Positions 5,977 to 64,000 are shown, numbered from the stretch's first letter. The stretch: DNA of 64,000 nt from a virus (IMGVR_UViG_2744054895_000001:30790-94789), one strand, 5' to 3'. The notes: a model not told the origin generated them from the letters alone. Numbers and translations are program-made.

Positions 5977-5998
5977 CACAAGTTGTGGAACAAGTTGG
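5977..5998. promoter_or_regulatory. Putative operator ACAA(C/G)TTGTGGAACAA(C/G)TT; copies at 3593-3611 and, inverted, 51317-51336
   Basis: Three near-identical AT-rich intergenic copies, each upstream of a minus-strand gene. Confidence 0.65.
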
Positions 5999-6008
5999 CA
6001 GACAAGCG

Positions 6009-6042
6009 GCGAGCCCGCCCCTTGAGCTCGGGACGGGCTCGT
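6009..6042 (-). terminator. Probable intrinsic terminator after holin
   Basis: Inverted repeat CGAGCCCGCCCC...GGGACGGGCTCG. Confidence 0.55.
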
Positions 6043-6056
6043 AGCGAGCGGCTCGG

Positions 6057-6371: not shown

Positions 6372-6387
6372 TGACACTCCAAAATTC

Positions 6388-21650: not shown

Positions 21651-22533
21651 TTACTTTATGACTGCGTAGGAATTCGGACCGTAACTGTCCGCGACCTTGA
21701 AGTCCCATCCCTCGTGCGCGAACGTGAGCTGGGAAACGGCGAATGTATTGCTTCCAGCGTCGAGGTCACCAAAGGCAACCGAGGTGGGCCAAGCGTTGTA
21801 GAGGCGCCATACCGCCTTTACTGCTGCCTTGCTCTTGGTAACCGGGTGGTCGATGAGCATGATGTCGATCGTGGCCCGGAATTCTGAGCCGGTATCGGAT
21901 CCGGATCCGTTGCCCTGCATGACGTCGAAGAGCTGGTACATCCAGTTCACGAGTTTCTGGTCGCCCGGCATCATTCCCTTGGAAAGGGTGACGGGGCTGA
22001 AGTCGCTCTGACCCAGAGGCTGTTACCTCTCCGGTTTCCCGGAGCGGGCTGGTCATTTCTGCCAGCCTCTCGCATTCTCATGCGAGTTCGGACTCTATCT
22101 TCACCCCAGAGGGGTGTCCCGTACATAGTCTCTGGACCTTCCCGTCGGTTTCCCAGGCGGGCTCGGCTGCTGATTTTCCCTACCCTCGGACTTCTCAAGC
22201 CGTCGCGCTCAGGCTTTCGCCCCACGCTGTGGCGCCGAGGTCTAACAGGACGTTCCAGCAATTCTCGGGATTTTCACTCGCTACTTACGCAGCGAGGGCC
22301 CAGTCAAGTTGAGGCATTTTCTGAGTGGTCGTGTTCATGCCGCCGGCCCTGTATGCGATGACGTCAGTCGTCACGGAAAGGCCGGAAACCGACATGAAGC
22401 CGAGCTTTGGATAGGCAGAGGACAGCTTGCCGACCTGGCTGATCTGGACGTGGAACTTGAACGAGCGAAGGGGGTCCGTCTGTCGCGAGGCCAGGCTCTG
22501 GCTTTGCGAGACGGTCTTGAGGGTGGATGCCAT
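21651..22533 (-). CDS. Tail tube protein (T4 gp19-like), two exons 22533-22312 and 22013-21651, 194 aa spliced
   Basis: Exon 1 DPLRSFKFHV..GF..VSGL..YRAGGMNTTTQKMP joins in frame to GQSDFSPVTLSKG..WRLYNAWP..LTFAHEGW. Confidence 0.9.
22014..22311 (-). ncRNA. Group I self-splicing intron (298 nt, no ORF)
   Basis: 5' exon ends in U, intron ends in G; P AAUUGCUGGAA, Q AAUCAGCAGC, R CAGAGACUA, S AAGAUAGAGUCC; P1 GCCU/GGGC with U.G; P10 UGACU/GGUCA. Confidence 0.93.
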
Positions 22534-42076: not shown

Positions 42077-42949
42077 ATGGCGGCCGTCACCAGCAGCAGC
42101 CCGCTCAACGCGAGGCGCAAGCTGGGCACCGAACTGCGCCTCCTACGCGACCAAGCCGGTCTGACGACGGAGGACGTCGGCGCGCGGCTCAACTGTCACA
42201 ACTCCAAGATCAGCAGGATCGAGAACGGGAAGAGGACGTGCGGCCAGAAGGATTTCACCGCCTTCATGGAGCTGTATGAAGTCGACGAGCCCAAGCGCGC
42301 CGAGCTGGAAGACCTGGCCACACGCTCCAGGCAGCGAGTGCCACCGTGGTGGCACGCTTACAACGACGTGATCTCCGCCAATTACAGCGAATTCTTGGCC
42401 TACGAGGCCGATGCGGACCGCACCTGTGAGTACCAGCCGCTGCTGATCCCTGGGCTACTGCAAACGGCGGATTACGCACGGGCAGTGACGGGCGTCAGCT
42501 ACGCGGCGCTCGGCCCTGATCAAGTGGACAGCCTCGTCGAGGTTCGCATTCGTCGCCAAGACAGGCTCCGCGAAGAGGTCCCACTGCTCGTCGAGGCCGT
42601 CGTCACCGAGGCTGCCCTCCGCCTGCTGGTCGGCGGAACCGACGTGATGCGAGCCCAGCTCCGAAGCCTGGCTCAGGTCATTACGCTCGACCACGTCCGG
42701 TTCAAGATCATCCCCTTCAGCGCGGGTGAAAAGGGAGCCAGCACCGGAGCTTTCACGCTGTTCGCCACGGGGAAGGACACTGATGCGGATGTGGCCTTCA
42801 CGGAGTCCGCCGAGAACACCACCAGCTTCCGTGATGATCCCCTGGCGCTCCGGCGCCTGAACCGCCTGTTTACCAACTTGTCCGCTGCCGCGCTCTCGGA
42901 GCATGATAGCCGTGAGCTGCTTGAACGTATCGAGAAAGAGCTGGTCTGA
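42077..42949 (+). CDS. XRE HTH + DUF5753 regulator (WhiJ/Scr1-like)
   Basis: RRKLGTELRLLRDQAGLT..SKISRIENG; IPGLLQTADYARA; EAALR..VGG.DVMRAQL. Confidence 0.92.
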   Translation: MAAVTSSSPLNARRKLGTELRLLRDQAGLTTEDVGARLNCHNSKISRIENGKRTCGQKDFTAFMELYEVDEPKRAELEDLATRSRQRVPPWWHAYNDVISANYSEFLAYEADADRTCEYQPLLIPGLLQTADYARAVTGVSYAALGPDQVDSLVEVRIRRQDRLREEVPLLVEAVVTEAALRLLVGGTDVMRAQLRSLAQVITLDHVRFKIIPFSAGEKGASTGAFTLFATGKDTDADVAFTESAENTTSFRDDPLALRRLNRLFTNLSAAALSEHDSRELLERIEKELV

Positions 42950-50188: not shown

Positions 50189-51190
50189 TCAGACGGCGAC
50201 GAGTTCCGCGGTGGAAAGCACCTCGCGGAGGGCCTCGTCGACCAGGACCTCGACGGCTTCGTCCAGCGCTGCCTGTGCCTGACGGCGGGCGGCGATGGCA
50301 CGGAGCTGCTCATCGAGCGCGTAGCTCGGGCTGTGGTCGAGGTTGTTTCGTGCGCGGTCGTACCGGCGGGTGGTGCGCGGGTCCGCGTGACCGAGCAGGT
50401 CTTGGACGGCCTCCAGCGGCTTGCCGCTCTCCAGCGCGAGGGTGGCGCAGGTGTGGCGGAGGTCGTGGGTGCGGATCACGCGGATGCCGGCGCGACGGCA
50501 CAGGCGCTTGACCATGTCCCAGATGCCCTGCCGGGTGATGCGTCGGCCGGTGGAGGTGATGATCAGCGCTCCGCTGGTGCGGCCGGCAAGGTATGCCTCC
50601 AGGGCCGCCCAGGCACTCGGAGGAATGACGATGGTCTGCCGTCGGCCGCCCTTGCGGGTGATGCGCAGGATCTTGTGTCCGCGCTCTTCGCCCAGGTCCT
50701 CGATGTTGGCGTTGACCAACTCGCTGACCCGCATGCCGGTCAGCAGGAGCATGTGGGCGACGGCCGCGCACCGCAGGCTGTACGCCTCGGCGCCACGCAG
50801 CAGTTGCTCGGACTCCTCAAAGGTCAAGCCGGTGGCCTGGGAGATGTTCGAGACCGGTTGGCGCTTCACCAGGGCGGCCGGGTTCCGGAAGACGATGTCC
50901 TCCAGTTCTGGCTCGGCCATGGCGTACTTGAACAGGCCGCTGACGACGGAGAGGTGTCGGTTCACCGAACCGTTGCCGTAGTTCTCGACGAGCCACTCCT
51001 TGAAGGCGTCCATCTGGAGACGCTTCTGGTTGAACGGGTCGAGACCGTGCTCGGCGCACCAGGTGAGGTAGTGGCGCAGGTCGCGCTTGTACTCCTCGCG
51101 TGTGCGGCCGGACTTGGTCAGAAGGAAGGCTCCGGCGACAGCGATCGGCTGGATCTGGCCATCGCTCATCAGCACAAGCTGCGCGCTCAC
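50189..51190 (-). CDS. Tyrosine recombinase/integrase (XerC/D-like)
   Basis: TGMRVSEL, HDLRHTCAT, LLGHADPRTTRRY; N-terminal SAM-like domain. Confidence 0.93.
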   Translation of the reverse strand: MSAQLVLMSDGQIQPIAVAGAFLLTKSGRTREEYKRDLRHYLTWCAEHGLDPFNQKRLQMDAFKEWLVENYGNGSVNRHLSVVSGLFKYAMAEPELEDIVFRNPAALVKRQPVSNISQATGLTFEESEQLLRGAEAYSLRCAAVAHMLLLTGMRVSELVNANIEDLGEERGHKILRITRKGGRRQTIVIPPSAWAALEAYLAGRTSGALIITSTGRRITRQGIWDMVKRLCRRAGIRVIRTHDLRHTCATLALESGKPLEAVQDLLGHADPRTTRRYDRARNNLDHSPSYALDEQLRAIAARRQAQAALDEAVEVLVDEALREVLSTAELVAV

Positions 51191-51757
51191 ATCAACGCCT
51201 TCCGTCGGTCGGGGAAGGCCCTCGGCGCTTGGTGCCCGCCAAGCAAGAAGGCCCGGAGAGTTCACCCGGTCGCGTTGCCCAACGCCTCCGGGGACTCTCC
51301 GAGCCTACTAGAAGAACAACTTGTTCCACAAGTTGTTAGTCAAGAGTTGTGCAGCTCAGACGACCCAAACCTCCGTCTCACTGACTATCCGCAACCGACT
51401 AGCGTCGCCGTCGGCAGCCTTCAGAGCCGCAGCTAACACCTCGGGCCAGACCTTCACCTCGGTCCGTACCCTGCCGTTGTGGGAGTTTCGCCGGCGAGTC
51501 GCCGCCCCCCGCCGCACGGCACGATCCCGCCGCATAGCAGCGTCCTCACAATCCAACCTCTGCCACGCGTTCGCACCGTGACGCACAACCCTGTCGAACG
51601 CGGAGGCGCGCTCCTTGAAGTCCTGACCCATCCGCTGCGCTCCCTGCATCTCGCTGCAAAGCAAGAGGGGCTGACCTCGGACTCCCGAGAACTCAGCCCC
51701 TCTTGCGTTAGATCAACTCTGATCCGGCAAGCCGCGCCCGCGGCTGCGGTAATAACG

Positions 51758-54837: not shown

Positions 54838-55649
54838 CCAACGGCACAATGACGCTCCGTGTTGCCCAGCCCGGTTGCGTCGCCGACCGGTGCGCTGGAA
54901 AGCTGCTAAGCGTGACCGGCTCGGCGACTTTCGTGGCTCTCCGTCTACGAAATCGCGAAACCCACCCCAGTCACGCACGGCTACTGTCCTAATTGCTCGA
55001 CCCGGTGGCCATACAAGTGATCAGGGGGGAGTCGTCGGCTTTACCCGTTTAAGGGTGGGGGTGTCCGTTTCATTCCTTCTGTTTCAGCCAATAGTCATGC
55101 ACGACCTTGCATACATTCCCATGCGCGTGCGTATGCCCGTTTCGCACCCTATGTCGACTAGGACAGTCTCTCCACCGTTTGGGTAACTCCCAAATTCCCA
55201 TTTGGGTGCGCCCCCAACTGCGGAAACCTCGCCTGGTCACCTAAAAGGTTGTCAGTAGTGCGAAAGTCAACCCTCGCGCGACACCTTTTCCTGCATAAAG
55301 TCGACAGTTACAGTTCGTAAACAGATACTGTCAACCCAGGGTTGCGGAGTCGTGGGGCCACCCCCTGACAAACGGACCATCAGATACGCAGAGAGTTACT
55401 CAACGTGCATATATGCAGGTCACAGGCATAGATTCGGCCACGCGGATGCACTGTACCAATAGACCGTCAGTTACTTAGGCTTACCTCTGTCAGCAGTTAC
55501 AGAGCGTCAGAATGGCGGAAAGTAGCGAAAGTGGCTTGCTGGCTACCGAGCGTGCGCACGGCGCAGCATGGCACAACGCATCCACCTACTCACTGTGTGT
55601 ATGGGGGAAGCATGCCGACCACTTCCCGCACTCCCCGAAAAAATCCCTA

Positions 55650-55925
55650 GGCGCCGCTGTGAGCCGCTGTGAGGCAGGCGAGGCAGCGTGAGCCGTGACG
55701 AGGCAGCGTGAGCCGCTACAGGCGCCGCTGTGAGCCGTAGGCATACCGAGCAACCGTGAGCCGCTGGGAGCGCTACAGGCACCGCTAGGCAGCGTGCCGA
55801 CCGAACGTGAGCCGCTAGGCGCCGCTGTGAGCCGCTGTCAGGTGTCGAGCGGCGCCGCTGTAGCCATGGCGCACATGAGCGGCTGTGAGCCGCTGTGAGG
55901 CAGCGTGCCGAGCAGCTGCTAGCCG
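55650..55925 (+). repeat. Degenerate direct-repeat array, 8 x GTGAGCCG
   Basis: Copies at 55659, 55688, 55708, 55730, 55756, 55807, 55827, 55885; longer GGCGCCGCTGTGAGCCG three times. Confidence 0.8.
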
Positions 55926-56162
55926 TACCTACTGCCTACGTGGTGCATGCGTAGGGAGTGTGCCGACCACCCATCACCCCCTGAATCTCCAGGGCCGTCG
56001 AGCCATGAATCGGACATAAAGCCTCATATAGGGGCGATCGAGTGGCCGGCAATTCGTGGTCACGGAAAGTAGTTCCCTGTCACGATTGGTCACGCGCCGC
56101 AGGTCACGACAGGTGCGAGATGTCGAGATTCAAGAGATTGCGAGATGGCTCGCGATTCTGGG

Positions 56163-56192
56163 TTGTGCGAGGTACCTCGCACCACCTAATGT
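56163..56192 (+). promoter_or_regulatory. Putative housekeeping-sigma promoter TTGTGC-N18-TAATGT overlapped by a perfect 18-bp palindrome
   Basis: GTGCGAGGTACCTCGCAC at 56165-56182; about 100 nt upstream of boxA. Confidence 0.55.
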
Positions 56193-56252
56193 TCTCTGTG
56201 TCGGAACGAGGAACCACCGGAAACGGGGGAACCGAGTGAAGGCGGATGAATC

Positions 56253-56315
56253 GCACGGACGAAAGCCCTACGGGGTCAGTAGAAAGGCAGCGATCGTTCC
56301 TTGAGAACTCAACAG
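56253..56315 (+). promoter_or_regulatory. rRNA-operon leader / boxA antitermination mimic
   Basis: GGACGAAAGCCCTACGGGGTCAGTAGAAAGGCAGCGATCGTTCCTTGAGAACTCAACAG resembles the Streptomyces rrn leader as recalled (GGAGGAAAGCCCGAGAGGGTGAGTACAAAGGAAGCGTCCGTTCCTTGAGAACTCAACAG). Confidence 0.8.
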
Positions 56316-56319
56316 TGGA

Positions 56320-56985
56320 TATAGACGCACGGGAACGGTAACGACGTTTCTGCGCGGGGGTCGAGGGACCCCCACTATCGGCCGACGTGTCGATAGGGCG
56401 TGCATGCAACAGGGGTGAGGTATGCCTACTGTTGCCGAAGGATTAGAGTCCGGGACCAAATGCGCGTGGCTAGACGTCCGTGGCTTTCACAGCATGGAGA
56501 CAGATAGTCAGTGGATACGTGGTGGCAAGAGCTAACACAGAGGTACCGCCACCGTTACCCGTAGCGTCACTCTCTCTCATATCGCGCCGGATTTATCTGT
56601 GCGCGATACGGGGAGCGTTGCTCTTACAGGGCGCTCCCCTACCCTCTCTGTTTGGTCCGTTTACCGACGGACAACGCAGTACCGAGAGAGTCTGTCTAGG
56701 TTTCCGGTTGGAATCCAAGCTAAACCCACCATGCGTTCAGTGTGCTAGCACTGCATGGCCGTCGTCTGATGACGTAAGTGAGGGGTGTCGTGGGGTCTAG
56801 CAGCCCCAAGTAGGTCAGTTACATCGAGGCCGAATCCCGGGTGCTTTCACAGGTCCTAAGCGAATTCCGATTCCTAGACGCTCTCTCAATCTCATGCACT
56901 ACGGTGCGGCAGGGGCATGCCGGCTTGTCATGCGCGCATTTCCCTGCCGTAGCCGAGAGCCAACGGAGTGGTGTCCGTTGGTCAC
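56320..56985 (+). ncRNA. Candidate large structured leader/ncRNA
   Basis: No credible ORF; many hairpins; long-range stems 56324-56338/56552-56568 and 56684-56700/56873-56887. Confidence 0.55.
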
Positions 56986-57003
56986 CCATGAGAGGAGAGA
57001 ACA

Positions 57004-57489
57004 ATGTCTCATCGCCAGGCGATTACCCGTGAGGATTACCTGTCGGCGCTGAGTGCCGCCCAGTTCGGCGATGTCGCTCCGTTTCTGGCGCGATGCTGCC
57101 CGGACTGCGGTGCGGGTGATGAGTCCGCATCGGATGGGAAGCACGCTGTCATGGGCGGCAGTGTCGTGATCGGATGCGACGGATCCATGCTCGTGAACCC
57201 CAATCTTCTGGGATTCAACGTGGAACTGTGGCTCGACTGGCGTCATATGGAATCCGACAACGTGCCCGAGGACGCCTCTGTGTGGGCATATGAGGGCGTG
57301 ATCTGGCGGACCGGCGCGAAGGTGCGTCCGGCCCGGCCGACGGAGTACGAGGACGGTCTGACCGGAACTCTCGTGCGTATTGCCCTGGAGCACAGCTTCG
57401 GCGATACCGAAGCAACGCTCTGGGTCCAGTGGCACAACAACACGAGCGGTCCGGACTATCACGGATACGGTGACATCGTTCTGATCTGA
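57004..57489 (+). CDS. hypothetical Cys/His protein (paralog of 60233-60931)
   Basis: GAGAGGAGAG RBS; CPDC..HAVMGGSVVIGCDG..VNPN..WLDWR. Confidence 0.75.
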   Translation: MSHRQAITREDYLSALSAAQFGDVAPFLARCCPDCGAGDESASDGKHAVMGGSVVIGCDGSMLVNPNLLGFNVELWLDWRHMESDNVPEDASVWAYEGVIWRTGAKVRPARPTEYEDGLTGTLVRIALEHSFGDTEATLWVQWHNNTSGPDYHGYGDIVLI

Positions 57490-57490
57490 A

Positions 57491-57558
57491 AGTCGTCCCG
57501 GCGACTCTAAATAGGCGTTAGGCCGGGAGCGTCCGTACGGAATTCCGTACGGGGTCGC
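57491..57558 (+). ncRNA. Pistol self-cleaving ribozyme 1
   Basis: P1 AGUCG/CGACU, loop UCCCGG pairs with CCGGGA, UAAAUAG, P2 GCG/CGC, UUAGG, GCGU, P3 CCGUACGG hairpin, G|U site 57554/57555. Confidence 0.9.
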
Positions 57559-57611
57559 AGCAGCGCTGCGGGTCAGGGGTGGTGCCCTGTCTGTGTCGAG
57601 AGGAGAGAGCA

Positions 57612-58139
57612 ATGAGCATCAGTCCGATCAACTGGTCCGAGCGCATCATGCGTCCCCGGTCCGGTGCGTGGAAGCAGTGCCCTAACTGCAAGCGGCGGAA
57701 CGTCTCCATTCGCTCCCCGCATTCCCACACCGACGGCCGACCGTGCAAGTTCGTGGTGATCTACCGCACGTACTTCACGATGGACATGATCCATGACGGC
57801 GACTACGGCCAGATCAGGAACGAGGACGGCTCTTTCGGTGACGGTCCCCTCCAGACTTACGAGATTGTGGACTGCGCGCCGAAGGACGTCTCCGGTCCAT
57901 GGGACAACCCCGTCAAGCTCGCAATCGACGCCATTCGTGACGCCGATTGCGCGTACGACGAGGGTGCCGACTGGTTTTACCACCACGACGGCTCGTACAT
58001 CCGAGACCACTACTCGGGTGAGCGCATCGACCCGTCCGCGCACCTCTGGGGGTTCACGGACGAGGAAGACGAGCGCGTCCACCACGTGATCCAGCGCGGG
58101 TGGAAGCAATTCTGGGCGAGCCTGCGTAAGGCCGCCTAA
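57612..58139 (+). CDS. hypothetical protein (CxxC..H..C)
   Basis: GAGAGGAGAGAG RBS, ATG 57612. Confidence 0.75.
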   Translation: MSISPINWSERIMRPRSGAWKQCPNCKRRNVSIRSPHSHTDGRPCKFVVIYRTYFTMDMIHDGDYGQIRNEDGSFGDGPLQTYEIVDCAPKDVSGPWDNPVKLAIDAIRDADCAYDEGADWFYHHDGSYIRDHYSGERIDPSAHLWGFTDEEDERVHHVIQRGWKQFWASLRKAA

Positions 58140-58140
58140 C

Positions 58141-58208
58141 AGTCGACTCGGCGACTCTAAATAGGCGTTAGGCCGAGTGCGTCCGTACGGAATTCCGTGC
58201 GGGGTCGC
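58141..58208 (+). ncRNA. Pistol self-cleaving ribozyme 2
   Basis: Same fold with compensatory pseudoknot ACUCGG/CCGAGU; G|U site 58204/58205. Confidence 0.9.
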
Positions 58209-58241
58209 AGGGGTGGTTCCCTGCCACGAGAGGAGAGAGCT

Positions 58242-58952
58242 ATGTCTGCGCAGACCCTCGAAATGGTTGCGTCCGACTTTCTGTACGGCTCCACCGAGGA
58301 GGCCCTGAACGAACTGTTCGCGGCCCCGCCGGCCATGGAGCCGCACACTGACGCGCGCTTCGACAAGGGCAACGACACGATCGTCATCGACGGGGTGCAG
58401 TTCTACGCCAAGCGCGTGGACTACCACCGTGAGATGGACGAGAAGTTCGTCCAGTGGGTGATGGAAAACCGCCAGGGGTTTCCGGTCTACGGCGACCCGT
58501 CCTCTGCGGACGGCGAGTCGTTGGAACTCTGGGCACAGTCCATCACGGACAAGTACTTCGGGTCCCCCTACATCTCCGGCATCGACACGGACGGCTACGA
58601 GTCGTTCATGCCGAACGGGGTCAAGGGCCAGTTCTTCCGGTACGAGGACGAGACGTACGTCGCCCTGTGGCAGCAGTGCACCGGATACCGCGCACGCACG
58701 CGTCCGATGGTGTTCCACGTGTCCTGCCACGAGTCCGCCTACCTGCTGGACGACGACAAGGCCACGGCGTACTGCACCGAGTGCGAGGACGTCGTGTTCG
58801 ACATCGAGTCCGGCGGGCAGCACATCAAGCGCATCGACCGGAACGGCGAAGAGATCGACGACGCCCCGGAGGTGTCATTCGACGACCTGGTCGGCCATCC
58901 CGTCTGCCCCAAGTGCGGTTCCGATCTGCGTGTCGAGGCCGCGAATTTCTGA
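58242..58952 (+). CDS. hypothetical acidic protein with C-terminal zinc ribbon
   Basis: RBS; CTEC...CPKCG. Confidence 0.75.
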   Translation: MSAQTLEMVASDFLYGSTEEALNELFAAPPAMEPHTDARFDKGNDTIVIDGVQFYAKRVDYHREMDEKFVQWVMENRQGFPVYGDPSSADGESLELWAQSITDKYFGSPYISGIDTDGYESFMPNGVKGQFFRYEDETYVALWQQCTGYRARTRPMVFHVSCHESAYLLDDDKATAYCTECEDVVFDIESGGQHIKRIDRNGEEIDDAPEVSFDDLVGHPVCPKCGSDLRVEAANF

Positions 58953-58961
58953 ATTCATTCA

Positions 58962-59021
58962 TGCCGAAACTCCGTGAGGAGTCGTCCCAAGGTGGTGCTT
59001 GGGACCTGATGATGGCAGCCA
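58962..59021 (+). ncRNA. Type II hammerhead ribozyme 1
   Basis: UGCC-GAAA-CUCC(GUGA)GGAG-UC|GUCCCAAG(GUGGUG)CUUGGGAC-CUGAUGA-U-GGCA; cut after 58983. Confidence 0.92.
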
Positions 59022-59053
59022 ATGTCTGAGTCAGTGTTGAGAGGAGAGAGCTT

Positions 59054-59617
59054 ATGTCTGACCTGCGCATCTACGTGGCGAGTCTGTCCGACTACAACAA
59101 CAGCATTCTCCACGGTCGATGGATCGACGCTGACCAGGATGTCCAGGCCATCAACGATGAGATCGCTGAGATGCTGAAGGAGTCGCCTGCGGCCCAGAAG
59201 TATGGCGATGTCGCGGAGGAGTATGCCATCCACGACTACGACGGATTCGGGGATTTCAATCTCGGCGAGTATGAATCGCTGGAGAAGATTACGTCCATTG
59301 CCAAGGCACTGGATGAGTTTCCCTCTTGTGTAGTCGCTTGGTTCTTCCGCGAGTGCTCCCACATGGAGTTCGACGAGATTGTGGACACCATCCGCGAGAA
59401 GTCGATCACCACGATCGAGGATCAGTGGGGCAATGAAACGGACGCGCTGGCTGAGTATCTCTTCGACCAGATCGAAGAGAGTGGTGACCTGCCGGAGCAG
59501 TACAAGAATCACCAGATGGCCATAGCCAAGAGCATGGCGCACGATGCCGTCTGCGGCGGGGAATACAACATCCTCTACGAGGGCGGCGGCAAGTACCACA
59601 TCTTCGAGGTCCTGTGA
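59054..59617 (+). CDS. ardA: Antirestriction protein ArdA (DNA mimic)
   Basis: RIYVASLSDYNNSILHGRWIDA..EEYAIHDYDGF..LGEYESL; very acidic. Confidence 0.88.
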   Translation: MSDLRIYVASLSDYNNSILHGRWIDADQDVQAINDEIAEMLKESPAAQKYGDVAEEYAIHDYDGFGDFNLGEYESLEKITSIAKALDEFPSCVVAWFFRECSHMEFDEIVDTIREKSITTIEDQWGNETDALAEYLFDQIEESGDLPEQYKNHQMAIAKSMAHDAVCGGEYNILYEGGGKYHIFEVL

Positions 59618-59622
59618 CCAAT

Positions 59623-59682
59623 TGCCGAAACCCCTTCGGGGGTCGTCTCAGGGTGGTGCCTGGGGCCTGACGATGGCAGCCA
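59623..59682 (+). ncRNA. Type II hammerhead ribozyme 2
   Basis: UGCC-GAAA-CCCC(UUCG)GGGG-UC|GUCUCAGG(GUGGUG)CCUGGGGC-CUGACGA-U-GGCA; cut after 59644. Confidence 0.92.
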
Positions 59683-59705
59683 TTGTCGGTTTCGAGAGGA
59701 GAGTT

Positions 59706-60140
59706 GTGACGAGACACGCTATCCGGGCGATGCGAGGAATAATGCGTCGCAGGGATCAGGACTACGCGTGGATTCCATCGCTGGGCCATGGAGTTCTCTA
59801 TGACCCCGATAACCCTACCTGCCCGCACTCTGTCACAAGAGCGGCAGTTCGTGCGCTCCCGAGCGGAACACGCACGATGTCTTGCAGGATAAGTAACAGG
59901 TCTCGCGCGTTGGAGCTCGTAGTCCGAGAATTGGCTACGGAATGGTACTGCGACATCGCAGACATACGATCTATCGTGGCCGACAGGTTCCGGGGATTCG
60001 GGGACAGCGAACAATCCGCACTCGACGATGCAATCACGAGTGGCCTTACTTCCCCGACTTCTCTGGAGAACGTCAAGCACGGGTGCATGACGGAATTCCG
60101 CAAGACGCCGTTCGGTGTGGTCATGCTCGATCAGGGTTAA
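59706..60140 (+). CDS. hypothetical protein
   Basis: GTG after GAGAGGAGAG; lower GC than neighbours. Confidence 0.65.
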   Translation: MTRHAIRAMRGIMRRRDQDYAWIPSLGHGVLYDPDNPTCPHSVTRAAVRALPSGTRTMSCRISNRSRALELVVRELATEWYCDIADIRSIVADRFRGFGDSEQSALDDAITSGLTSPTSLENVKHGCMTEFRKTPFGVVMLDQG

Positions 60141-60146
60141 TCAAAA

Positions 60147-60206
60147 GCCGAAACCCCTTCGGGGGTCGTCGTGGGGTGGTGCCCACGGCCTGATGACGGC
60201 AGCCGC
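60147..60206 (+). ncRNA. Type II hammerhead ribozyme 3
   Basis: GCC-GAAA-CCCC(UUCG)GGGG-UC|GUCGUGGG(GUGGUG)CCCACGGC-CUGAUGA-C-GGC; cut after 60167. Confidence 0.92.
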
Positions 60207-60232
60207 TGAAGTCAGTTCTGAGAGGAGAGAGC

Positions 60233-60931
60233 ATGAAGCCCGAGGAATTGGAGTACCTGGACGCCGTGCGTCAGACACCCCTCGGACGCATCGAGCCTTA
60301 CCTGTCTTCGGTCTGTCGTGACTGCGACGGACAGGTGGACTCGTCGAATTTGGCTGGGCACGTGATGATCGGCTCACATGTCGTTATCTGCTGTGAGGGT
60401 TACTTCATGGTGGACCCGAACGTGGTCGGCATCCCGTCGCCGAATTGGTCGGACTGGCGCGAGAAGGCAGAGTCCAATCCCAAGTCGCTGTATAAGCAGG
60501 GTGAGTTCCTGGCTGCGCACGCCCTAGAACTGGGCGTCTCGTACGACAGCGATCTTCCTGCGTCCGCCTTCCACCCGAAGCTCGTCGGCGCGGCCATTGC
60601 CGCTCTGCGTGCATGGCTGGAGGTCAACTGGGGCAGCGCAGCAGTCCGCGAGGCCGAAAAGGAGGCCCTCGGTCACACCGGAGACGGGATGTATGTCGGC
60701 ACGGTCGACAAGCTCAACTACCAGGGGAAGACCCTGTGGGTTGGTGATCGTGTGCGCTGCGCGAACCAGGATGCGCAGGGGAACGACCTGTCTTTCTCCG
60801 GGGTGCTAGCCAAGATCGAGCTGGAGTACTGGGGGTCCGAACTGAAGCCGACGGTCAATGTGCGCGCTCCCGAAGCGACGCACGACGATCCGATCGGATG
60901 GGAGGACCTGAGCCGCGTAACGTCGTCGTAG
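60233..60931 (+). CDS. hypothetical Cys/His protein (paralog of 57004-57489)
   Basis: CRDC..HVMIGSHVVICCEG..VDPN..WSDWR. Confidence 0.75.
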   Translation: MKPEELEYLDAVRQTPLGRIEPYLSSVCRDCDGQVDSSNLAGHVMIGSHVVICCEGYFMVDPNVVGIPSPNWSDWREKAESNPKSLYKQGEFLAAHALELGVSYDSDLPASAFHPKLVGAAIAALRAWLEVNWGSAAVREAEKEALGHTGDGMYVGTVDKLNYQGKTLWVGDRVRCANQDAQGNDLSFSGVLAKIELEYWGSELKPTVNVRAPEATHDDPIGWEDLSRVTSS

Positions 60932-60948
60932 TTTGGATTCGCCTACAA

Positions 60949-61010
60949 GCCGAAACCTCCGAGAGGAGGTCGTCGTGGGGTGGTGCCCACGGCCTGATGA
61001 AGGCAGCCGC
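60949..61010 (+). ncRNA. Type II hammerhead ribozyme 4
   Basis: GCC-GAAA-CCUCC(GAGA)GGAGG-UC|stem I-CUGAUGA-A-GGC; cut after 60971. Confidence 0.92.
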
Positions 61011-61037
61011 TGAAGTCAGTTCTGAGAGGAGAGAGTT

Positions 61038-61538
61038 ATGGGTCTGAGCAAGCAGGATGTCCGCGCGATCAGGAACGCTGATGGACTGGTGTTCTTCCAC
61101 AACGCCCCGATTTCTCGGGGCGGTGAGCGCATGAACTGGCTCAAGTGCATCCGCGACGGTTCGAAGACTTCGAGTGGTTTCGAGGACTTCCACGTCGTCC
61201 GGCTGGAGAGCACGTCCATCACGTACTACGGGGAGGACGCGCACACCAAGCACTCGGCGTCCCTCGGTGACGAAAAGGTCGTCGGGTCCGTCTACATCAG
61301 CTCCCCCGGCATGCTGCCGCAGCATGAGACCTGGATGCGAGCGCTCCGCGAGGGTGATGAACTCCGGGTCCAGATGTGGCTGGGCAACAACAACGGCTAC
61401 CTCAAGGAGTCGGGGATGGCGCATGACTACGCGTGGTTGGACATCCGGCGCCCGAAGACGGACGCCAGGACAAGGTACTGGCTGGGCAATGTGATCTGCC
61501 CGGCGACCAGCACGTGCCGCATGCTGAGGGCGCTCTGA
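61038..61538 (+). CDS. hypothetical protein
   Basis: Strong RBS, 166 aa. Confidence 0.75.
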   Translation: MGLSKQDVRAIRNADGLVFFHNAPISRGGERMNWLKCIRDGSKTSSGFEDFHVVRLESTSITYYGEDAHTKHSASLGDEKVVGSVYISSPGMLPQHETWMRALREGDELRVQMWLGNNNGYLKESGMAHDYAWLDIRRPKTDARTRYWLGNVICPATSTCRMLRAL

Positions 61539-61602
61539 ACCAGCGGTAGAAGGCTCGCCGGCTGAGGTGTGTTCTCTGTCGGCGGCCCTGCCGTGCCTAA
61601 TT

Positions 61603-61662
61603 TGCCGAAACTCCGTGAGGAGTCGTCGTGGGGTGGTGCCCACGGCCTGACGAAGGCAGCCA
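61603..61662 (+). ncRNA. Type II hammerhead ribozyme 5
   Basis: UGCC-GAAA-CUCC(GUGA)GGAG-UC|stem I-CUGACGA-A-GGCA; cut after 61624. Confidence 0.92.
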
Positions 61663-61694
61663 ATCGCTGAGTCAGTATTGAGAGGAGAGAGCAC

Positions 61695-62519
61695 ATGAGC
61701 ATCAGAAAAGTGCTGGTCTCGGCTGATGACGTTCACGCGTACGAAGCCATGGTCGACACGGAGGCTCCGCTGTGGAACGGGTTTCTTTCGCCCCGCTTCA
61801 CTCTGGAGGCCGTGAAGCAGATAGCTTCTGACATGCAGGAGGATCTGAAGAGGTCCGGCTACGCCGATCAGGAGGAGATCCGCGTCATCGAGGCCCCCGG
61901 TTTGTTCGGGGAAAGCGAGGACAGGGTCGACGAGTTCGGCGAGCCGATCCAGATCCCTGCGGTGGTGGTGCTCCATATCAGTTGGACGTACGTCTTCGAT
62001 GACGACCCGGAGTCCTGCGCGAAGGTGGTTGCGCCCGGCAAAGACGGGTTGTACGCCGTTGGCGCATGGGAGTGGACGTGGAGCGAGATCAGTCCGAACA
62101 TCTCCCAGCGCGCGGAGTATCTATTCGACTTCGCGACCGCGGCCATCAATGAGGCTGTCTGGTACGAAGTCGAGCCGACTGAGGACGACGAGGACCAGAC
62201 GCTCGGCATGGAGTGGGAAGCCGTCGAGGCCCTGAACCTGGGGATCAACAGCGTGCATCTCAACATGCGCTCCGCCTTCATGTCCGCGCTCGGGGAGTTC
62301 ATCGACGCCAATGCGCAGGTGCTGAACGGCATCCCTGCCGACCAGGCCGGCTATGCCTTCTGGCACTCCATGCGCGGGGTGGACGGCATCAAGTCCCGTT
62401 CGTTCCTCGGAAGGCGTGAGATCCCCGCAGAGGTTCGCCAGCGTCTCCACGAGACGGCGCGTACGCACTCGTACAGCAGCGTTCGATTCGTCGGAGACAT
62501 GCTCCACATCGAGAGCTAG
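61695..62519 (+). CDS. hypothetical acidic protein
   Basis: Strong RBS; WNGFLSPRFT..GLYAVGAWEWTW. Confidence 0.75.
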   Translation: MSIRKVLVSADDVHAYEAMVDTEAPLWNGFLSPRFTLEAVKQIASDMQEDLKRSGYADQEEIRVIEAPGLFGESEDRVDEFGEPIQIPAVVVLHISWTYVFDDDPESCAKVVAPGKDGLYAVGAWEWTWSEISPNISQRAEYLFDFATAAINEAVWYEVEPTEDDEDQTLGMEWEAVEALNLGINSVHLNMRSAFMSALGEFIDANAQVLNGIPADQAGYAFWHSMRGVDGIKSRSFLGRREIPAEVRQRLHETARTHSYSSVRFVGDMLHIES

Positions 62520-62527
62520 CTCAACAA

Positions 62528-62589
62528 TGCCGAAACCTCCGAGAGGAGGTCGTCGTGGGGTGGTGCCCACGGCCTGATGAAGGCAGCCA
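62528..62589 (+). ncRNA. Type II hammerhead ribozyme 6
   Basis: UGCC-GAAA-CCUCC(GAGA)GGAGG-UC|stem I-CUGAUGA-A-GGCA; cut after 62551. Confidence 0.92.
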
Positions 62590-62620
62590 ATCGCTGAGTC
62601 AGTGTTGAGAGGAGAGAGCT

Positions 62621-63217
62621 ATGCGGACTGCTTCAACTATGATCGGTTTCGCGATCGTCGAGGACGACGACTTCGACCTGGAGAACTTCAGCGACTCCGA
62701 AGCGCTCATCAAGGAGTGCGGCGAGAAGCTGGAGTCTGGGGAGTGGACCGTCTGCGGCATCGTGGCCGTGGTCCACGGCGAACTTCGATACGAGGCCGCC
62801 CTGTGGGGCACCGTCATCGAGGGCTGGCACTTCGGCAGGTACAAGACCGTGGAGGACATCCGCGACCCGTACCTCCGAGAGGTCGCCGAGGACATCGCCG
62901 ATCAGGCGCAGGATCTCATCCCGGTGACGCACGCCGACGACTCACCTGACGCGCTGGTCGGTCACGTGGTGGCCGTCCGGCCGTACTACTACGAGCCATC
63001 CGGTCCCGGATCCTTCCGCTCCAAGCGTTCCCCATTCATCGCCCGTGCGGAGGTGAAGGAGACGTTCGGGGAGGAGATGGTCGTCCTGCGGTTCCTGGAG
63101 GACGCCGGTCCGTGGCCGCGCGACGGTGCCTACTACCCGCGCGAGTTGCACAAGGTGCAGGCGTGCAAGTGCCCCGCATGTACCTCCGGTGGCATCGGCA
63201 TACACCAGGGAGCTTGA
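62621..63217 (+). CDS. hypothetical protein
   Basis: Strong RBS, acidic N-half, C-terminal CxCxxC. Confidence 0.72.
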   Translation: MRTASTMIGFAIVEDDDFDLENFSDSEALIKECGEKLESGEWTVCGIVAVVHGELRYEAALWGTVIEGWHFGRYKTVEDIRDPYLREVAEDIADQAQDLIPVTHADDSPDALVGHVVAVRPYYYEPSGPGSFRSKRSPFIARAEVKETFGEEMVVLRFLEDAGPWPRDGAYYPRELHKVQACKCPACTSGGIGIHQGA

Positions 63218-63280
63218 TCCAGACGCAGAGGACTCGTCGGCTTGCCATGCACGTCGGCCGACGGATCCGCCATGCCTTAT

Positions 63281-63343
63281 TGCCGAAACCTCCTGCAAGG
63301 AGGTCGTCACGGGGTGGTGCCCGTGGCCTGACGAAGGCAGCCC
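63281..63343 (+). ncRNA. Type II hammerhead ribozyme 7
   Basis: UGCC-GAAA-CCUCC(UGCAA)GGAGG-UC|GUCACGGG(GUGGUG)CCCGUGGC-CUGACGA-A-GGCA; covarying stem I; cut after 63305. Confidence 0.92.
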
Positions 63344-63370
63344 TTGGTCAGTTCTGAGAGGAGAGAGCAC

Positions 63371-64000
63371 ATGATCAGCACCGGCAAGCCCGAGGTCAAC
63401 CCGGCTACCTTCGTGCTCGCGGAGGATGACGGGGTGGTCACGGTACAGGTGTCCGTCACCTACCCGATGGATGGTGAGGCCATCGTCGCCAAGCTCTACG
63501 CGGCGTACAGCAAGCCGTTCGAGAACGGCACGCCCCTCCCCGAGCAGTTGACCATGCAGGACGTCATGCGCACGCTCGCGCAGGAGTCCGCCAACTGCGC
63601 GGACGGCTGGCACTTCTGGGAGTCCGAGCCAGGCCAGGCGGCGTGGGACGCGGTTCATCCGTGGGCGGAGGCTCAGGTCCGTCGTCTCTTTCCCATGCTG
63701 ACGTGGCCAGAGGAGCAGTGGTCCGAGTATGCCGAGGTCGGCCGGATGGTCGAGCATCTCCGGCAGATGGGGATCCCCGCCGAGGAGATCAGCACAGGTG
63801 GCGGCTGCTGGGCCGCGCGTGTGGCGCTTTGCCAGGGGCACGATCTGAACCTGACCATCGCGTCCGGTGAGGACTGGTGTTGGCAGATCTACCGCGAGGG
63901 CGAGCAGAGCATGGCCGGCTACTGGCCGGGGTCTGACATTCCGCGTGCCGCCCGGCGCACCAAGAAGCTCATCAAGGGGCTCGGCAACGTGGTTGCCTGA
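63371..64000 (+). CDS. hypothetical protein
   Basis: ATG 63371 after GAGAGGAGAGAG; stop at window end. Confidence 0.72.
   Translation: MISTGKPEVNPATFVLAEDDGVVTVQVSVTYPMDGEAIVAKLYAAYSKPFENGTPLPEQLTMQDVMRTLAQESANCADGWHFWESEPGQAAWDAVHPWAEAQVRRLFPMLTWPEEQWSEYAEVGRMVEHLRQMGIPAEEISTGGGCWAARVALCQGHDLNLTIASGEDWCWQIYREGEQSMAGYWPGSDIPRAARRTKKLIKGLGNVVA

What the first reader, a model, noticed from the sequence alone, without database searches (positions are those of the whole stretch)
56160..64000. Ribozyme-punctuated phage early operon: a self-cleaving ribozyme at every gene junction, behind an rRNA-type antiterminator
Seen in the sequence: ten co-oriented genes with nine junctions, each holding an intact-looking ribozyme shortly after the stop codon. 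Two are pistol (57491, 58141) and seven are type II hammerhead (58962, 59623, 60147, 60949, 61603, 62528, 63281). Each is followed by a near-identical GAGAGGAGAG(AG) RBS, and I saw no internal terminators or promoters. Catalytic residues are invariant (CUGANGA, GAAA, GUC; UAAAUAG, GCGU, GU) while stems covary, which argues for selection on function. Established: both classes cleave without protein and leave 5'-OH and 2',3'-cyclic phosphate ends. Inference: one antiterminated transcript processes itself into monocistronic mRNAs, each capped by a 5'-OH hairpin that should resist 5'-monophosphate-dependent RNase E/J decay. This would be an RNA-only counterpart of RNase III processing of the T7 early transcript, used for anti-defence/takeover genes such as ardA. 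I do not know a description of this combination, but could not search the literature.
Basis: partly seen in the sequence, partly recalled or inferred. Interest (0 to 1): 0.97.

Follow-up and report, generated by a model that had tools for sequence, protein, structure and literature searches.

The report
Ribozyme-punctuated Streptomyces prophage operon
A Streptomyces prophage places a self-cutting RNA between every pair of genes in one operon, behind a copy of the host's ribosomal-RNA leader; this is a very dense example of an arrangement known since 2011 whose purpose is still untested.

Summary
Rfam places 2 pistol and 7 type II hammerhead ribozymes, all above gathering score, at all 9 junctions of 10 co-oriented genes. 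GAGAGGAGAG precedes all 10 genes. Gene 4 is ArdA.

The "rRNA-type antiterminator" is real as sequence. Window 56248-56315 is 81-85% identical to the Streptomyces rrn leader.

Two related prophages in Streptomyces genomes carry the same leader with 20 (3 pistol + 17 hammerhead) and 17 hammerhead ribozymes. One orthologous junction holds a pistol in two of them and a hammerhead in the third. The isolated phages Loofah and Issmi carry 11 hammerheads each, unannotated.

The novelty claim fails. Clustered hammerheads flanking single prophage genes, including ardA, were cleavage-tested in 2011 (PMC3088659). T7 has a boxA behind its early promoters (PMC3709561). This scan has 33 similar notes on other genomes.

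The idea that a 5'-OH end protects against RNase J conflicts with the glmS/RNase J1 precedent (PMC3328962). Cleavage, antitermination and early timing are inferred, not shown.

Verdict: a real, extreme variant of a known kind and a good experimental system.

The parts
56163..56192 (+). Promoter-like element TTGTGC-N18-TAATGT, overlapped by a palindrome at 56161-56186 that could be a repressor operator
   Evidence: The element sits at the equivalent place in all three related prophages. The inverted repeat is I1. It did not pass the stricter consensus scan. Its function is inferred.
56248..56315 (+). Copy of the host rRNA-operon leader segment: a boxB-like hairpin plus a boxA/boxC-like TCGTTCCTTGAGAACTCAACAG
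   Evidence: It is 81-85% identical over 63-69 nt to five Streptomyces rrn leaders and to the leader of phage Lannister. The shared 15-mer lies 93-242 nt before the 16S 5' end in 55 of 120 loci. The hairpin stem differs between relatives while its flanks stay constant. Similar copies occur in 73 Streptomyces phage records.
56320..56680 (+). Conserved, ORF-poor structured leader RNA
   Evidence: It is 81-89% identical to the G180 and G047 leaders. All three forward frames are full of stops. The consensus fold has 8 of 106 pairs with compensatory changes, including a long-range helix between about 56324-56353 and 56510-56568, from only three sequences. No Rfam hit at E<=1.
56959..56999 (+). Hairpin with a GUGGUG loop plus the GAGAGGAGAG RBS in front of gene 1, with no ribozyme
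   Evidence: The fold is. The sequence is nearly identical in G180. It resembles hammerhead stem I and may be a relic of a lost hammerhead.
57004..57489 (+). Gene 1 (161 aa, unknown function; N-terminal region similar to that of gene 6)
   Evidence: ORF and GC3 of 0.73. In tblastn its N-terminal residues 10-88 hit the same place in L139 as the gene 6 ortholog. No family hit.
57491..57559 (+). Pistol ribozyme 1; predicted cleavage before U57555
   Evidence: 68.4 bits against a cut-off of 34.5. The pseudoknot is compensated relative to pistol 2.
57612..58139 (+). Gene 2 (175 aa, unknown function)
   Evidence: 82% aa identity to an ortholog in G180. GC3 of 0.85.
58141..58209 (+). Pistol ribozyme 2; predicted cleavage before U58205
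   Evidence: 67.3 bits. The junction upstream of the gene 3 ortholog holds a pistol in G180 and a hammerhead in G047.
58242..58952 (+). Gene 3 (236 aa, unknown function)
   Evidence: 85% aa identity in G180 and 88% in G047. The protein atlas gave nothing informative.
58962..59024 (+). Hammerhead II; cleavage before G58984
   Evidence: 49.9 bits against a cut-off of 37.
59054..59617 (+). Gene 4, ArdA anti-restriction protein
   Evidence: Pfam PF07275 at 7.1e-25. phrog_2059 at 4e-22.
59623..59685 (+). Hammerhead II; cleavage before G59645
   Evidence: 48.0 bits.
59706..60140 (+). Gene 5 (144 aa, GTG start, unknown function)
   Evidence: GC3 is only 0.64. The C-terminal 52 aa are 34-39% identical to ORFs in G180 and G047.
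60146..60208 (+). Hammerhead II; cleavage before G60168
   Evidence: 50.8 bits.
60233..60931 (+). Gene 6 (232 aa, unknown function)
   Evidence: 46-53% aa identity to orthologs in G047 and G180.
60948..61012 (+). Hammerhead II; cleavage before G60972
   Evidence: 55.4 bits.
61038..61538 (+). Gene 7 (166 aa, unknown function)
   Evidence: ORF with GC3 of 0.86. No homolog in G180 or G047 at 1e-4.
61543..61594 (+). Strong hairpin without a U-tract, between the stop of gene 7 and the hammerhead
   Evidence: MFE of -33.6 kcal/mol. Similar elements sit at four junctions in G180. It may be a 3' stabiliser or a U-less terminator; untested.
61603..61665 (+). Hammerhead II; cleavage before G61625
   Evidence: 47.3 bits.
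61695..62519 (+). Gene 8 (274 aa, two domains, unknown function)
   Evidence: Its N and C halves match separate genes in G180. Homologs occur in 15 of 401 Streptomyces genomes sampled and in hypothetical proteins of Streptomyces.
62528..62592 (+). Hammerhead II; cleavage before G62552
   Evidence: 56.2 bits.
62621..63217 (+). Gene 9 (198 aa, unknown function)
   Evidence: 73% aa identity to an ortholog in G047.
63225..63275 (+). Second hairpin without a U-tract, before a hammerhead
   Evidence: MFE of -23.9 kcal/mol.
63281..63346 (+). Hammerhead II; cleavage before G63306
   Evidence: 51.4 bits.
63371..64000 (+). Gene 10 (209 aa, unknown function); its stop codon is the last base of the record
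   Evidence: Its halves match separate genes in G180 and G047. The window end equals the record end.

Best explanation
This is the right-end operon of a temperate, myovirus-type Streptomyces prophage. The prophage also encodes a tail sheath, baseplate proteins, portal, terminase and a tyrosine integrase.

Proposed mechanism:
1. Host RNA polymerase starts at a conserved promoter-like site at 56163-56192. A palindrome overlaps the site and could bind a repressor.
2. The transcript first carries a roughly 68-nt copy of the host rrn leader (boxB-type hairpin, boxA/boxC-type segment). This most likely loads the host Nus/rrn antitermination factors, as the boxA of T7 and lambda does.
3. Next comes a conserved structured leader, then at least 10 genes built as repeated cassettes: ribozyme, hairpin, GAGAGGAGAG RBS, gene.
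4. Each pistol or type II hammerhead cleaves itself during transcription. Only 3-4 base pairs hold the downstream product, so the pieces separate.
5. Each upstream mRNA ends in a stable hairpin (hammerhead stem III, or the pistol body) with a 2',3'-cyclic phosphate.
6. Each downstream mRNA begins with a flush 5'-OH hairpin and a near-identical 37-70-nt leader in which the RBS is mostly unpaired.

The net effect is that every accessory gene, whatever its neighbour, is expressed from the same insulated leader as its own mRNA. In logic this matches the T7 early region: host promoter, boxA, an anti-restriction gene, processing at each junction. Here RNA does the job of RNase III.

Shown here: the identity and placement of the ribozymes, covariation, the rrn homology, and conservation in relatives. 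Inferred: cleavage in vivo, a single transcript, antitermination, early timing, and the effect on stability or translation.
For: - 9 of 9 junctions hold a ribozyme above the Rfam cut-off, and there is none elsewhere in the record.
- Cores are intact and stems covary. The pistol pseudoknot is compensated.
- Two collinear related prophages (78-86% nt identity for G180; same leader in G047) carry the same leader with 20 and 17 ribozymes. A longest-ORF heuristic gives one predicted gene per interval, each preceded by GAGAGGAGA.
- The junction before the gene 3 ortholog holds a pistol in two relatives and a hammerhead in the third. Selection therefore seems to act on cleavage, not on one particular fold.
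- Folds of the post-cleavage leaders show a flush 8-bp 5' hairpin. A second hairpin pairs the former CUGAYGA core with the conserved spacer and leaves the RBS largely open.
- rrn homology. The G047 leader also retains a 16S fragment (Rfam SSU model positions 101-347, 127 bits) collinear with an rrn operon.
- The same rrn copy sits near the right end of 73 Streptomyces phage records. In the 40 rows listed, all but one (Kenrey) lie about 0.64-0.73 kb from the right end on the minus strand, at the head of the right arm in Lannister.
- Precedent: clustered prophage hammerheads cleave in vitro and in vivo (PMC3088659). T7 boxA (PMC3709561).
Against: - There are no expression data. No sequencing run could be listed, so cleavage, transcript ends and timing are unobserved.
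- All seven hammerheads have one extra nucleotide between CUGANGA and stem II. This shows as an insert in the cmscan alignment, and its effect on the cleavage rate is unknown.
- Two conserved U-less hairpins could be terminators or attenuators.
- Loofah and Issmi have hammerhead arrays but no rrn copy within 2 mismatches of the 15-mer in the stretches I fetched. The two features are therefore separable.
- The promoter failed the stricter consensus scan. Streptomyces promoters are diverse, so internal promoters cannot be excluded.
- z-scores of the post-cleavage folds are modest, -0.5 to -2.4.
- A 5'-OH end can trigger RNase J decay rather than prevent it.
Confidence: 0.7

Rival explanations
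1. Cleavage serves to limit expression rather than stabilise it. Each cut creates a 5'-OH end that RNase J can attack and separates the mRNA from its neighbours. The accessory genes would then be expressed as a short pulse, with individually tuned half-lives.
For: The only well-understood bacterial self-cleaver, glmS, works by exposing a 5'-OH end to RNase J1 (PMC3328962 passage; PMC6765202). The pistol products begin with 2-5 unpaired bases.
Against: At all seven hammerhead junctions the new 5' end is the first base of an 8-bp hairpin, with no single-stranded overhang. Such an end is expected to hinder a 5' exonuclease (my recollection of the 5'-stem-loop literature, not checked here). Constitutive destabilisation of every gene would be a costly design.
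Confidence: 0.15
2. The repeated junction cassettes are mainly recombination linkers that let gene cassettes be gained, lost and shuffled between phages. RNA cleavage would be secondary.
For: Between the window, G180 and G047, whole units of one gene plus one ribozyme are inserted or missing exactly at junctions, and halves of genes 8 and 10 appear as separate genes. Hammerhead junction cassettes within the window are 72-93% identical to each other. Similar hammerheads occur in unrelated siphoviruses (Loofah, Issmi) but not in the nearest myovirus relatives LuckySocke and BRock.
Against: A mere linker need not keep catalytic cores invariant while stems covary. Nor would two unrelated ribozyme folds be expected to replace one another at one junction. 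Shuffling is better read as a consequence of the modular design.
Confidence: 0.1
3. Gene-length RNAs with 5'-OH and 2',3'-cyclic phosphate ends are ligated by host RtcB into circular or spliced RNAs.
For: The ends produced are the substrates of RtcB-type ligases (my recollection). Perreault et al. raised this possibility.
Against: Perreault et al. looked for spliced or circular products and could not detect them. No RtcB gene was found in the phage record, while the control search detected it in 10 of 14 reference genomes.
Confidence: 0.03
4. The ribozymes are inactive relics, or each gene has its own promoter, so the junction elements do not shape the transcripts.
For: No expression data exist. 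There is an extra nucleotide next to the core.
Against: Scores are well above the cut-offs. 46 ribozymes in three relatives have conserved cores and compensatory changes. The junctions leave no room for promoters, and no promoter-like site on the + strand was found inside the operon.
Confidence: 0.03

Closest known systems
Clustered hammerhead ribozymes flanking single genes in prophages (Perreault et al. 2011, PMC3088659; passages read)
   Same: Type II hammerheads with the loop I/3'-tail pseudoknot, in a prophage, flanking individual genes including ardA. The paper proposes processing of long phage transcripts into single-gene mRNAs and shows cleavage in vitro and in vivo for the Agrobacterium triple arrangement.
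   Different: Here occupancy is complete and far denser: 9 of 9 junctions, and 20 and 17 ribozymes in the relatives. Two ribozyme classes are interchangeable at one orthologous junction. The RBS leader is uniform, the host is an actinomycete, and an rrn-leader copy heads the operon. I could not see the paper's figures or supplements, so larger arrays may be drawn there.
Bacteriophage T7 early region
   Same: Host-polymerase promoters are followed by a boxA antitermination element (PMC3709561 passage). The polycistronic early RNA includes an anti-restriction gene and is cut at gene junctions into separate mRNAs with hairpin ends (RNase III sites; recalled, not read here).
   Different: Cutting needs the host enzyme RNase III and leaves 5'-phosphate and 3'-OH ends. 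Here the RNA cuts itself and leaves 5'-OH and cyclic phosphate. The antiterminator here is a 68-nt copy of the host rrn leader including the hairpin, not a short boxA alone.
Bacterial rrn operon leader (boxB-boxA-boxC, rrn antitermination complex; PMC2724277 passages)
   Same: 81-85% sequence identity to the Streptomyces rrn leader segment, placed shortly after a promoter. One relative retains a 16S fragment.
   Different: No rRNA follows in the window. The element heads an mRNA operon. Binding of Nus factors was not tested.
Pistol ribozyme class (Weinberg 2015, recalled; Harris 2015, PMC4604425)
   Same: Full-length match to RF02679, phage context, neighbouring other self-cleaving ribozymes.
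   Different: Harris et al. describe pistols as prevalent in Firmicutes and environmental DNA. These are in a Streptomyces prophage.
Synthetic ribozyme insulators such as RiboJ (recalled, not read here)
   Same: A self-cleaving ribozyme followed by a hairpin gives every gene the same 5' leader, independent of upstream context.
   Different: That is an engineered part used singly. Here nature uses 9-20 in series.
tRNA punctuation (mitochondrial model, recalled) and the tRNA-like mini-helices at junctions of phage Lannister
   Same: A processing signal sits at each gene junction of a long transcript. In Lannister the same kind of right-arm operon, behind the same rrn copy, has T-arm/acceptor-like elements where this prophage has ribozymes.
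   Different: Those would need RNase P or RNase Z. None is present in the window.

Membership tests
Hammerhead ribozyme, type II (RF02276) | Covariance-model score at or above the curated gathering score | tested here: met
   Seven hits of 47.3-56.2 bits against a cut-off of 37, each covering the full model 1-66.
Hammerhead ribozyme, type II (RF02276) | Conserved core: CUGANGA, GAAA, A15.1-U16.1, and a cleavage triplet ending in H17 | tested here: met
   All seven read CGAAAC ... GUC | ... CUGA(U/C)GA. One extra nucleotide follows CUGANGA (insert in the alignment).
Hammerhead ribozyme, type II (RF02276) | Stems I and III closed by loops, stem II open and short, stems supported by covariation | tested here: met
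   Model alignment. In 25 sequences, 9 of 13 pairs have compensatory changes, including stem II CG/GC/UA.
Hammerhead ribozyme, type II (RF02276) | Pseudoknot between loop I and the tail 3' of stem II | tested here: inconclusive
   Loop GGUGGUGCC and the invariant AGCC tail can pair over 3-4 bp by eye. I did not count covariation for it.
Hammerhead ribozyme, type II (RF02276) | Self-cleavage | not testable with these tools
   Needs a transcription or cleavage assay.
Pistol ribozyme (RF02679) | Covariance-model score at or above the gathering score, over the full model | tested here: met
   68.4 and 67.3 bits against a cut-off of 34.5, model 1-68.
Pistol ribozyme (RF02679) | Pseudoknot between the P1 loop and the strand 3' of P2; conserved UAAAUAG and GCGU; G-U cleavage site | tested here: met
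   Both copies keep the motifs. Four of the five differences between the copies form two compensatory pseudoknot pairs.
Pistol ribozyme (RF02679) | Self-cleavage | not testable with these tools
   Needs an assay.
rrn-type antitermination leader (boxB-boxA-boxC) | Sequence homology to the host rrn leader segment that lies upstream of 16S | tested here: met
   81-85% identity over 63-69 nt to five Streptomyces rrn leaders. The shared 15-mer lies 93-242 nt before the 16S 5' end in 55 of 120 loci; 56 were too near a contig end and 9 had no 16S motif.
rrn-type antitermination leader (boxB-boxA-boxC) | Position on the nascent RNA shortly after the promoter | tested here: inconclusive
   A conserved promoter-like site lies about 55-60 nt upstream, but no transcript start is mapped.
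rrn-type antitermination leader (boxB-boxA-boxC) | Binding of NusB/NusE/NusA and read-through of terminators | not testable with these tools
   Needs binding and read-through assays.
ArdA anti-restriction protein | Match to Pfam PF07275 above its cut-off | tested here: met
   7.1e-25, 88.9 bits against a cut-off of 27, profile positions 1-147 of 155. phrog_2059.
Clustered ribozymes flanking genes in prophages (Perreault 2011) | Several self-cleaving ribozymes, co-oriented, flanking single genes or short blocks, in a prophage | tested here: met
   Nine ribozymes at nine junctions. Prophage genes: integrase, terminase, portal, sheath, baseplate. A collinear relative is bounded by host genes.
Phage early operon | Transcription early in infection | not testable with these tools
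   Only indirect support: ArdA, a palindrome over the promoter, and a position like the right-arm operons of Streptomyces siphoviruses.

The most novel reading that the evidence does not exclude
The rrn-leader copy and the ribozymes form one integrated, protein-free expression chassis.

The captured rrn leader, which still carries a 16S fragment in one relative, would load the host rRNA antitermination complex onto the polymerase. Self-cleavage at every junction would then cut the nascent RNA behind the polymerase. Neither Rho nor a 5' exonuclease travelling along upstream RNA could reach the polymerase, and every cassette would receive the same insulated leader.

This would allow 10-20 freely exchangeable accessory or anti-defence genes to be expressed uniformly, without translational coupling and without any phage-encoded factor. 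In related phages, tRNA-like mini-helices do the same job at the same positions.
Probability: 0.25. Interest if true: 0.8.

Novelty: new variant of a known kind. Interest (0 to 1): 0.55.

Why it matters
The 2019 review I read calls the biological roles of bacterial self-cleaving ribozymes other than glmS "largely elusive" (PMC6765202).

This family of Streptomyces prophages offers an unusually clean test case:
- Every junction is occupied: 9, 20 and 17 ribozymes in three relatives.
- Two ribozyme classes substitute for one another at one orthologous junction.
- The leader is standardised.

Cultured phages of Streptomyces lividans and S. griseofuscus (Loofah, Issmi) carry 11 hammerheads each. 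Core mutants, end-specific RNA-seq and half-life measurements are therefore ordinary experiments.

The copy of the host rrn leader is present but unannotated in 73 Streptomyces phage records. This suggests that borrowing the rRNA antitermination machinery is common in actinophages. I found no paper on it in the two searches I made.

For synthetic biology, this is a natural precedent for ribozyme-insulated multi-gene operons in a high-GC host.

Tried and rejected
Expression data. The look-up of sequencing runs listed no run, so no RNA holder was listed.

I could not see whether the operon continues. I used relatives found with the genome search instead.

Close relatives in IMG/VR. An exact pistol 20-mer gave 0 hits. 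The search for related loci with genes 8 and 3 found no relatives. tblastn of genes 8 and 6 against the phage collection gave no match.

Functions of the nine non-ArdA proteins. Pfam, PHROGs and NCBIfam gave no hits. The protein atlas for gene 3 gave only sub-0.9 leads.

Ribozyme searches that came back empty:
- Six of the seven Streptomyces loci holding gene 8 homologs had no ribozymes.
- Three non-rrn loci with the boxA 15-mer (L032, L019, L109) and the Mollymur right end had none either.
- An RNA family search of five whole Streptomyces genomes scored only 150 of about 10,000 candidates per genome, so it is uninformative.
- Lannister and Ponzi right arms had no known ribozyme even at E<=5.

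Circular-RNA idea. No RtcB was found in the record.

16S or rrn similarity in the window's own leader beyond the 68-nt segment. None was found by blastn with word size 7.

Script errors. The tblastx comparison gave unusable noise, and I replaced it with blastn. In one search three gene starts were one base off; I corrected them in later calls.

Literature. Searches found no paper on ribozyme arrays in Streptomyces phages. Searches found none on an rrn-leader copy in Streptomyces phages. The library lacks most subscription journals, and supplements were closed. Perreault's Figure 3 and Dataset S1, which I could not see, may list larger arrays.

Full report
WHAT IS THERE

An Rfam scan of the whole window at curated thresholds returns ten hits:
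- one group I intron far from the finding;
- two pistol ribozymes, at 57491-57559 and 58141-58209 (68.4 and 67.3 bits; cut-off 34.5);
- seven type II hammerheads, at 58962, 59623, 60146, 60948, 61603, 62528 and 63281 (47.3-56.2 bits; cut-off 37).

All nine ribozymes are on the + strand, and each matches its model end to end. A more permissive scan of 40000-64000 adds nothing. Searches of the complete 94,789-bp virus record find no further copy of either family.

- Each ribozyme begins 1-16 nt after a stop codon.
- At two junctions it begins 63-64 nt after the stop, and an additional strong hairpin fills the gap.
- Three start codons in my script were one base off. The correct starts are 57612, 58242 and 59706.
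- The cleavage products would carry leaders of 37-70 nt.

GAGAGGAGAG occurs eleven times in the record on both strands: ten in front of these ten genes and one elsewhere. All seven hammerheads keep CGAAAC, GUC and CUGA(U/C)GA.

ARE THE RIBOZYMES UNDER SELECTION?

The two pistol cores differ at 5 of 69 positions. Four of those differences are two double changes that keep the P1-loop pseudoknot paired.

For the hammerheads I aligned 25 sequences: the 7 from the window and 18 of the 22 found in two isolated phages. I left out four of unusual length. Nine of 13 predicted pairs show compensatory changes, including stem II.

One caveat: all seven window hammerheads have one extra nucleotide between CUGANGA and stem II. 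The covariance model treats it as an insertion. Its effect on the cleavage rate can only be measured.

CONTEXT

The record is an IMG/VR provirus, and the window is its right-hand 64 kb. Most genes lie on the minus strand:
- a baseplate J protein, 41-43% identical to those of Streptomyces myoviruses such as LuckySocke and BRock;
- tail sheath, T4-type baseplate protein, portal and large terminase;
- a tyrosine integrase at 50189-51265.

The ribozyme operon diverges from these genes on the + strand. It runs to the last base of the record, which is the stop codon of gene 10.

Gene 4 is ArdA (Pfam 7.1e-25; PHROG anti-restriction). The other nine products match nothing in Pfam, PHROGs or NCBIfam.

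RELATIVES

Homologs of gene 8 occur in 15 of 401 sampled Streptomyces genomes. Of seven such loci scanned with Rfam, one contains 3 pistols and 17 hammerheads in 12.4 kb (L139 in genome G180).

The window's leader DNA matches 2 of 401 genomes, G180 and G047. G047 has 17 hammerheads and no pistol.

In both relatives a longest-ORF heuristic gives one predicted gene per inter-ribozyme interval. GAGAGGAGA stands before nearly every one.

G180 is collinear with the window's record from portal through terminase and integrase to the operon, at 78-86% nucleotide identity. After its last ribozyme come a few more genes, including an Lsr2-like protein. Host-type genes follow (AlkZ-like, CorA; GC3 above 0.9).

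Two conclusions follow.
- The operon is part of the prophage and sits at its right end.
- The window's copy is probably cut short by the record boundary.

Genes 2 and 3 are 82-88% identical in protein between relatives. Other cassettes differ: whole gene-plus-ribozyme units are present or absent exactly at junctions, and halves of genes 8 and 10 occur as separate genes.

The junction in front of the gene 3 ortholog holds a pistol in the window and in G180 but a hammerhead in G047. Two unrelated folds replacing each other at one position argues that cleavage itself is what is selected.

The same kind of array is also present, unannotated, in cultured phages.
- The siphoviruses Loofah and Issmi each have 11 type II hammerheads in the intergenic gaps of their right arms.
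- The nearest myovirus relatives LuckySocke and BRock, and Gordonia phage Mollymur, have none.
- The right arm of Lannister has no known ribozyme even at E<=5. Seven of its eleven larger gaps instead carry a conserved T-arm/acceptor-like mini-helix, which ARAGORN does not call as a tRNA.

THE LEADER

- In 55 loci the 16S 5' end follows 93-242 nt downstream (median 185).
- In 56 loci the contig ends too soon to tell.
- In 9 loci there is room but my 16S motif did not match. Rfam showed that one of these nine does carry 16S.

Window 56248-56315 is 81-85% identical over 63-69 nt to five Streptomyces rrn leaders and 85% identical to the Lannister leader. The hairpin in this segment changes sequence and length between relatives while its flanks stay constant.

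In G047 the leader also contains a 16S fragment (Rfam SSU model positions 101-347, 127 bits). Its spacing is collinear with a real rrn operon. This points to capture from a host rrn operon rather than convergence. The window's own leader shows no further rrn similarity.

A dedicated search finds the segment in 73 phage records, all from Streptomyces phages, and no feature is annotated under any of the 40 rows listed. In those rows all but one (Kenrey) lie about 0.64-0.73 kb from the right end on the minus strand.

About 55-60 nt upstream lies a promoter-like TTGTGC-N18-TA(A/G)(T/A)GT. It is conserved in all three prophages and overlapped by a palindrome.

Between the rrn copy and gene 1 the RNA has no open frame. 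It is strongly conserved and folds into a long-range helix enclosing several hairpins. Eight of 106 pairs are compensated, on only three sequences.

rrn leaders are known to nucleate the Nus-factor antitermination complex through boxA, and in M. tuberculosis boxC binds NusA (PMC2724277 passages). That this copy does the same is an inference.

HOW IT MOST LIKELY WORKS

One transcript starts near 56200 and is made termination-resistant by the rrn copy. It cuts itself at each junction as it emerges.

Only 3-4 base pairs (hammerhead stem II, pistol P2) hold the 3' product, so the pieces should separate.

Folding the predicted 3' products gives the following picture.
- At all seven hammerhead junctions an 8-bp hairpin begins at the very first base.
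- A second hairpin pairs the former CUGAYGA core with the conserved spacer.
- The RBS stays largely unpaired.
- z-scores are modest, -0.5 to -2.4.

The upstream product ends in stem III or in the compact pistol body.

Every gene thus gets its own mRNA with protected ends and the same leader. This resembles synthetic ribozyme insulators and, in logic, the T7 early region. T7 too has a boxA behind its host-polymerase promoters (PMC3709561 passage), and as I recall it has an anti-restriction gene and junction processing by RNase III.

Any protection would come from the flush hairpin.

The two U-less hairpins before the hammerheads at 61603 and 63281 recur at four junctions in G180. They may be 3' stabilisers or terminators that the antitermination complex reads through. 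'No internal terminators' is therefore open.

RIVALS
- Cleavage as a timer that shortens mRNA life: possible, about 0.15.
- Junction cassettes as recombination linkers: real as a consequence but unlikely as the primary function, given conserved cores and class swapping. About 0.1.
- RtcB-made circles: no RtcB in the record, and none were detected by Perreault et al..
- Inactive relics or separate promoters: contradicted by scores, covariation and lack of space.

WHAT IS KNOWN

Perreault et al. [quoted passage not shown] They say this implies processing of long phage transcripts into single-gene mRNAs. They report that three tandem arrangements cleave in vitro, and that the Agrobacterium triple, which flanks ardA, cleaves in vivo.

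Pistol was found through its association with phage genes and other ribozymes, and was reported as prevalent in Firmicutes.

The 2019 review still calls the bacterial roles largely elusive.

My searches found no paper on such arrays in Streptomyces phages and none on the rrn-leader copy in them. The library is incomplete, and supplements were closed.

This scan has already noted ribozyme-punctuated phage operons 33 times in at least 31 other genomes. It has also noted the Streptomyces-phage rrn-leader copy at least twice.

VERDICT

This is not a new kind of system. It is an extreme, clean and experimentally accessible variant of a known one, combined with a captured rrn leader. I score interest at 0.55.

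Noticed in passing
window 22069-22321 (- strand): A group I intron (Rfam 68.5 bits) splits the gp19-like tail tube gene. The upstream piece (22324-22533) matches Pfam PF06841 positions 1-39 and the downstream piece (21654-22022) matches positions 46-133.
   Followed up: partly
The Rfam gathering scan of the window returned only one Intron_gpI hit. I did not examine this site.
   Followed up: no
L003 (Streptomyces phage Lannister, NC_028827) locus positions 1205-6429: Seven of eleven larger intergenic gaps in the right-arm operon hold a conserved tRNA-like mini-helix: a T-arm GGTTCGAGYCC inside a GGGTG/CACCC stem. They sit behind the same rrn-leader copy, where this prophage has ribozymes. They may be RNase P or RNase Z processing signals. 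ARAGORN calls no tRNA there.
   Followed up: partly
L152:3080-3298 (G047:C21): A related prophage's leader contains a 16S rRNA fragment (SSU model positions 101-347, 127 bits). It is collinear in spacing with a Streptomyces rrn operon, which is evidence that the leader was captured from a host rrn operon.
   Followed up: partly
window 56320-56680: A conserved, ORF-free structured leader RNA with a long-range closing helix (about 56324-56353 with 56510-56568) and several compensated hairpins. It has no Rfam match, and one block of about 60 nt is nearly invariant among three relatives.
   Followed up: partly
window 55640-55920: A dense array of direct repeats built on GCCGCTGTGAGCCG and GTGAGCCGCT (families D1-D4 and D6), just upstream of the operon promoter. 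It could be a protein-binding array or an origin.
   Followed up: no
window 57560-57600, 58207-58225 and 56959-56982: Hairpins with a GUGGU(G/U) loop, like hammerhead stem I, also follow both pistols and precede gene 1, where no hammerhead core exists. They may be relics of replaced hammerheads or a functional part of the standard leader.
   Followed up: partly
73 Streptomyces phage records, e.g. NC_028827 49458-49524: The rrn-leader copy is unannotated in every one of the 40 rows listed. In those rows all but one (Kenrey) place it about 0.64-0.73 kb from the right genome end on the minus strand.
   Followed up: partly
window 61695-62519 and 63371-64000: Genes 8 and 10 each consist of two halves that occur as separate genes in the related prophages. 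This is domain-level shuffling within the cassette array.
   Followed up: partly
window 42077-42949 and 50189-51265: An XRE-type HTH + DUF5753 regulator and a tyrosine integrase lie between the structural genes and the ribozyme operon. The integrase is 13 kb inside the record's right end.
   Followed up: no
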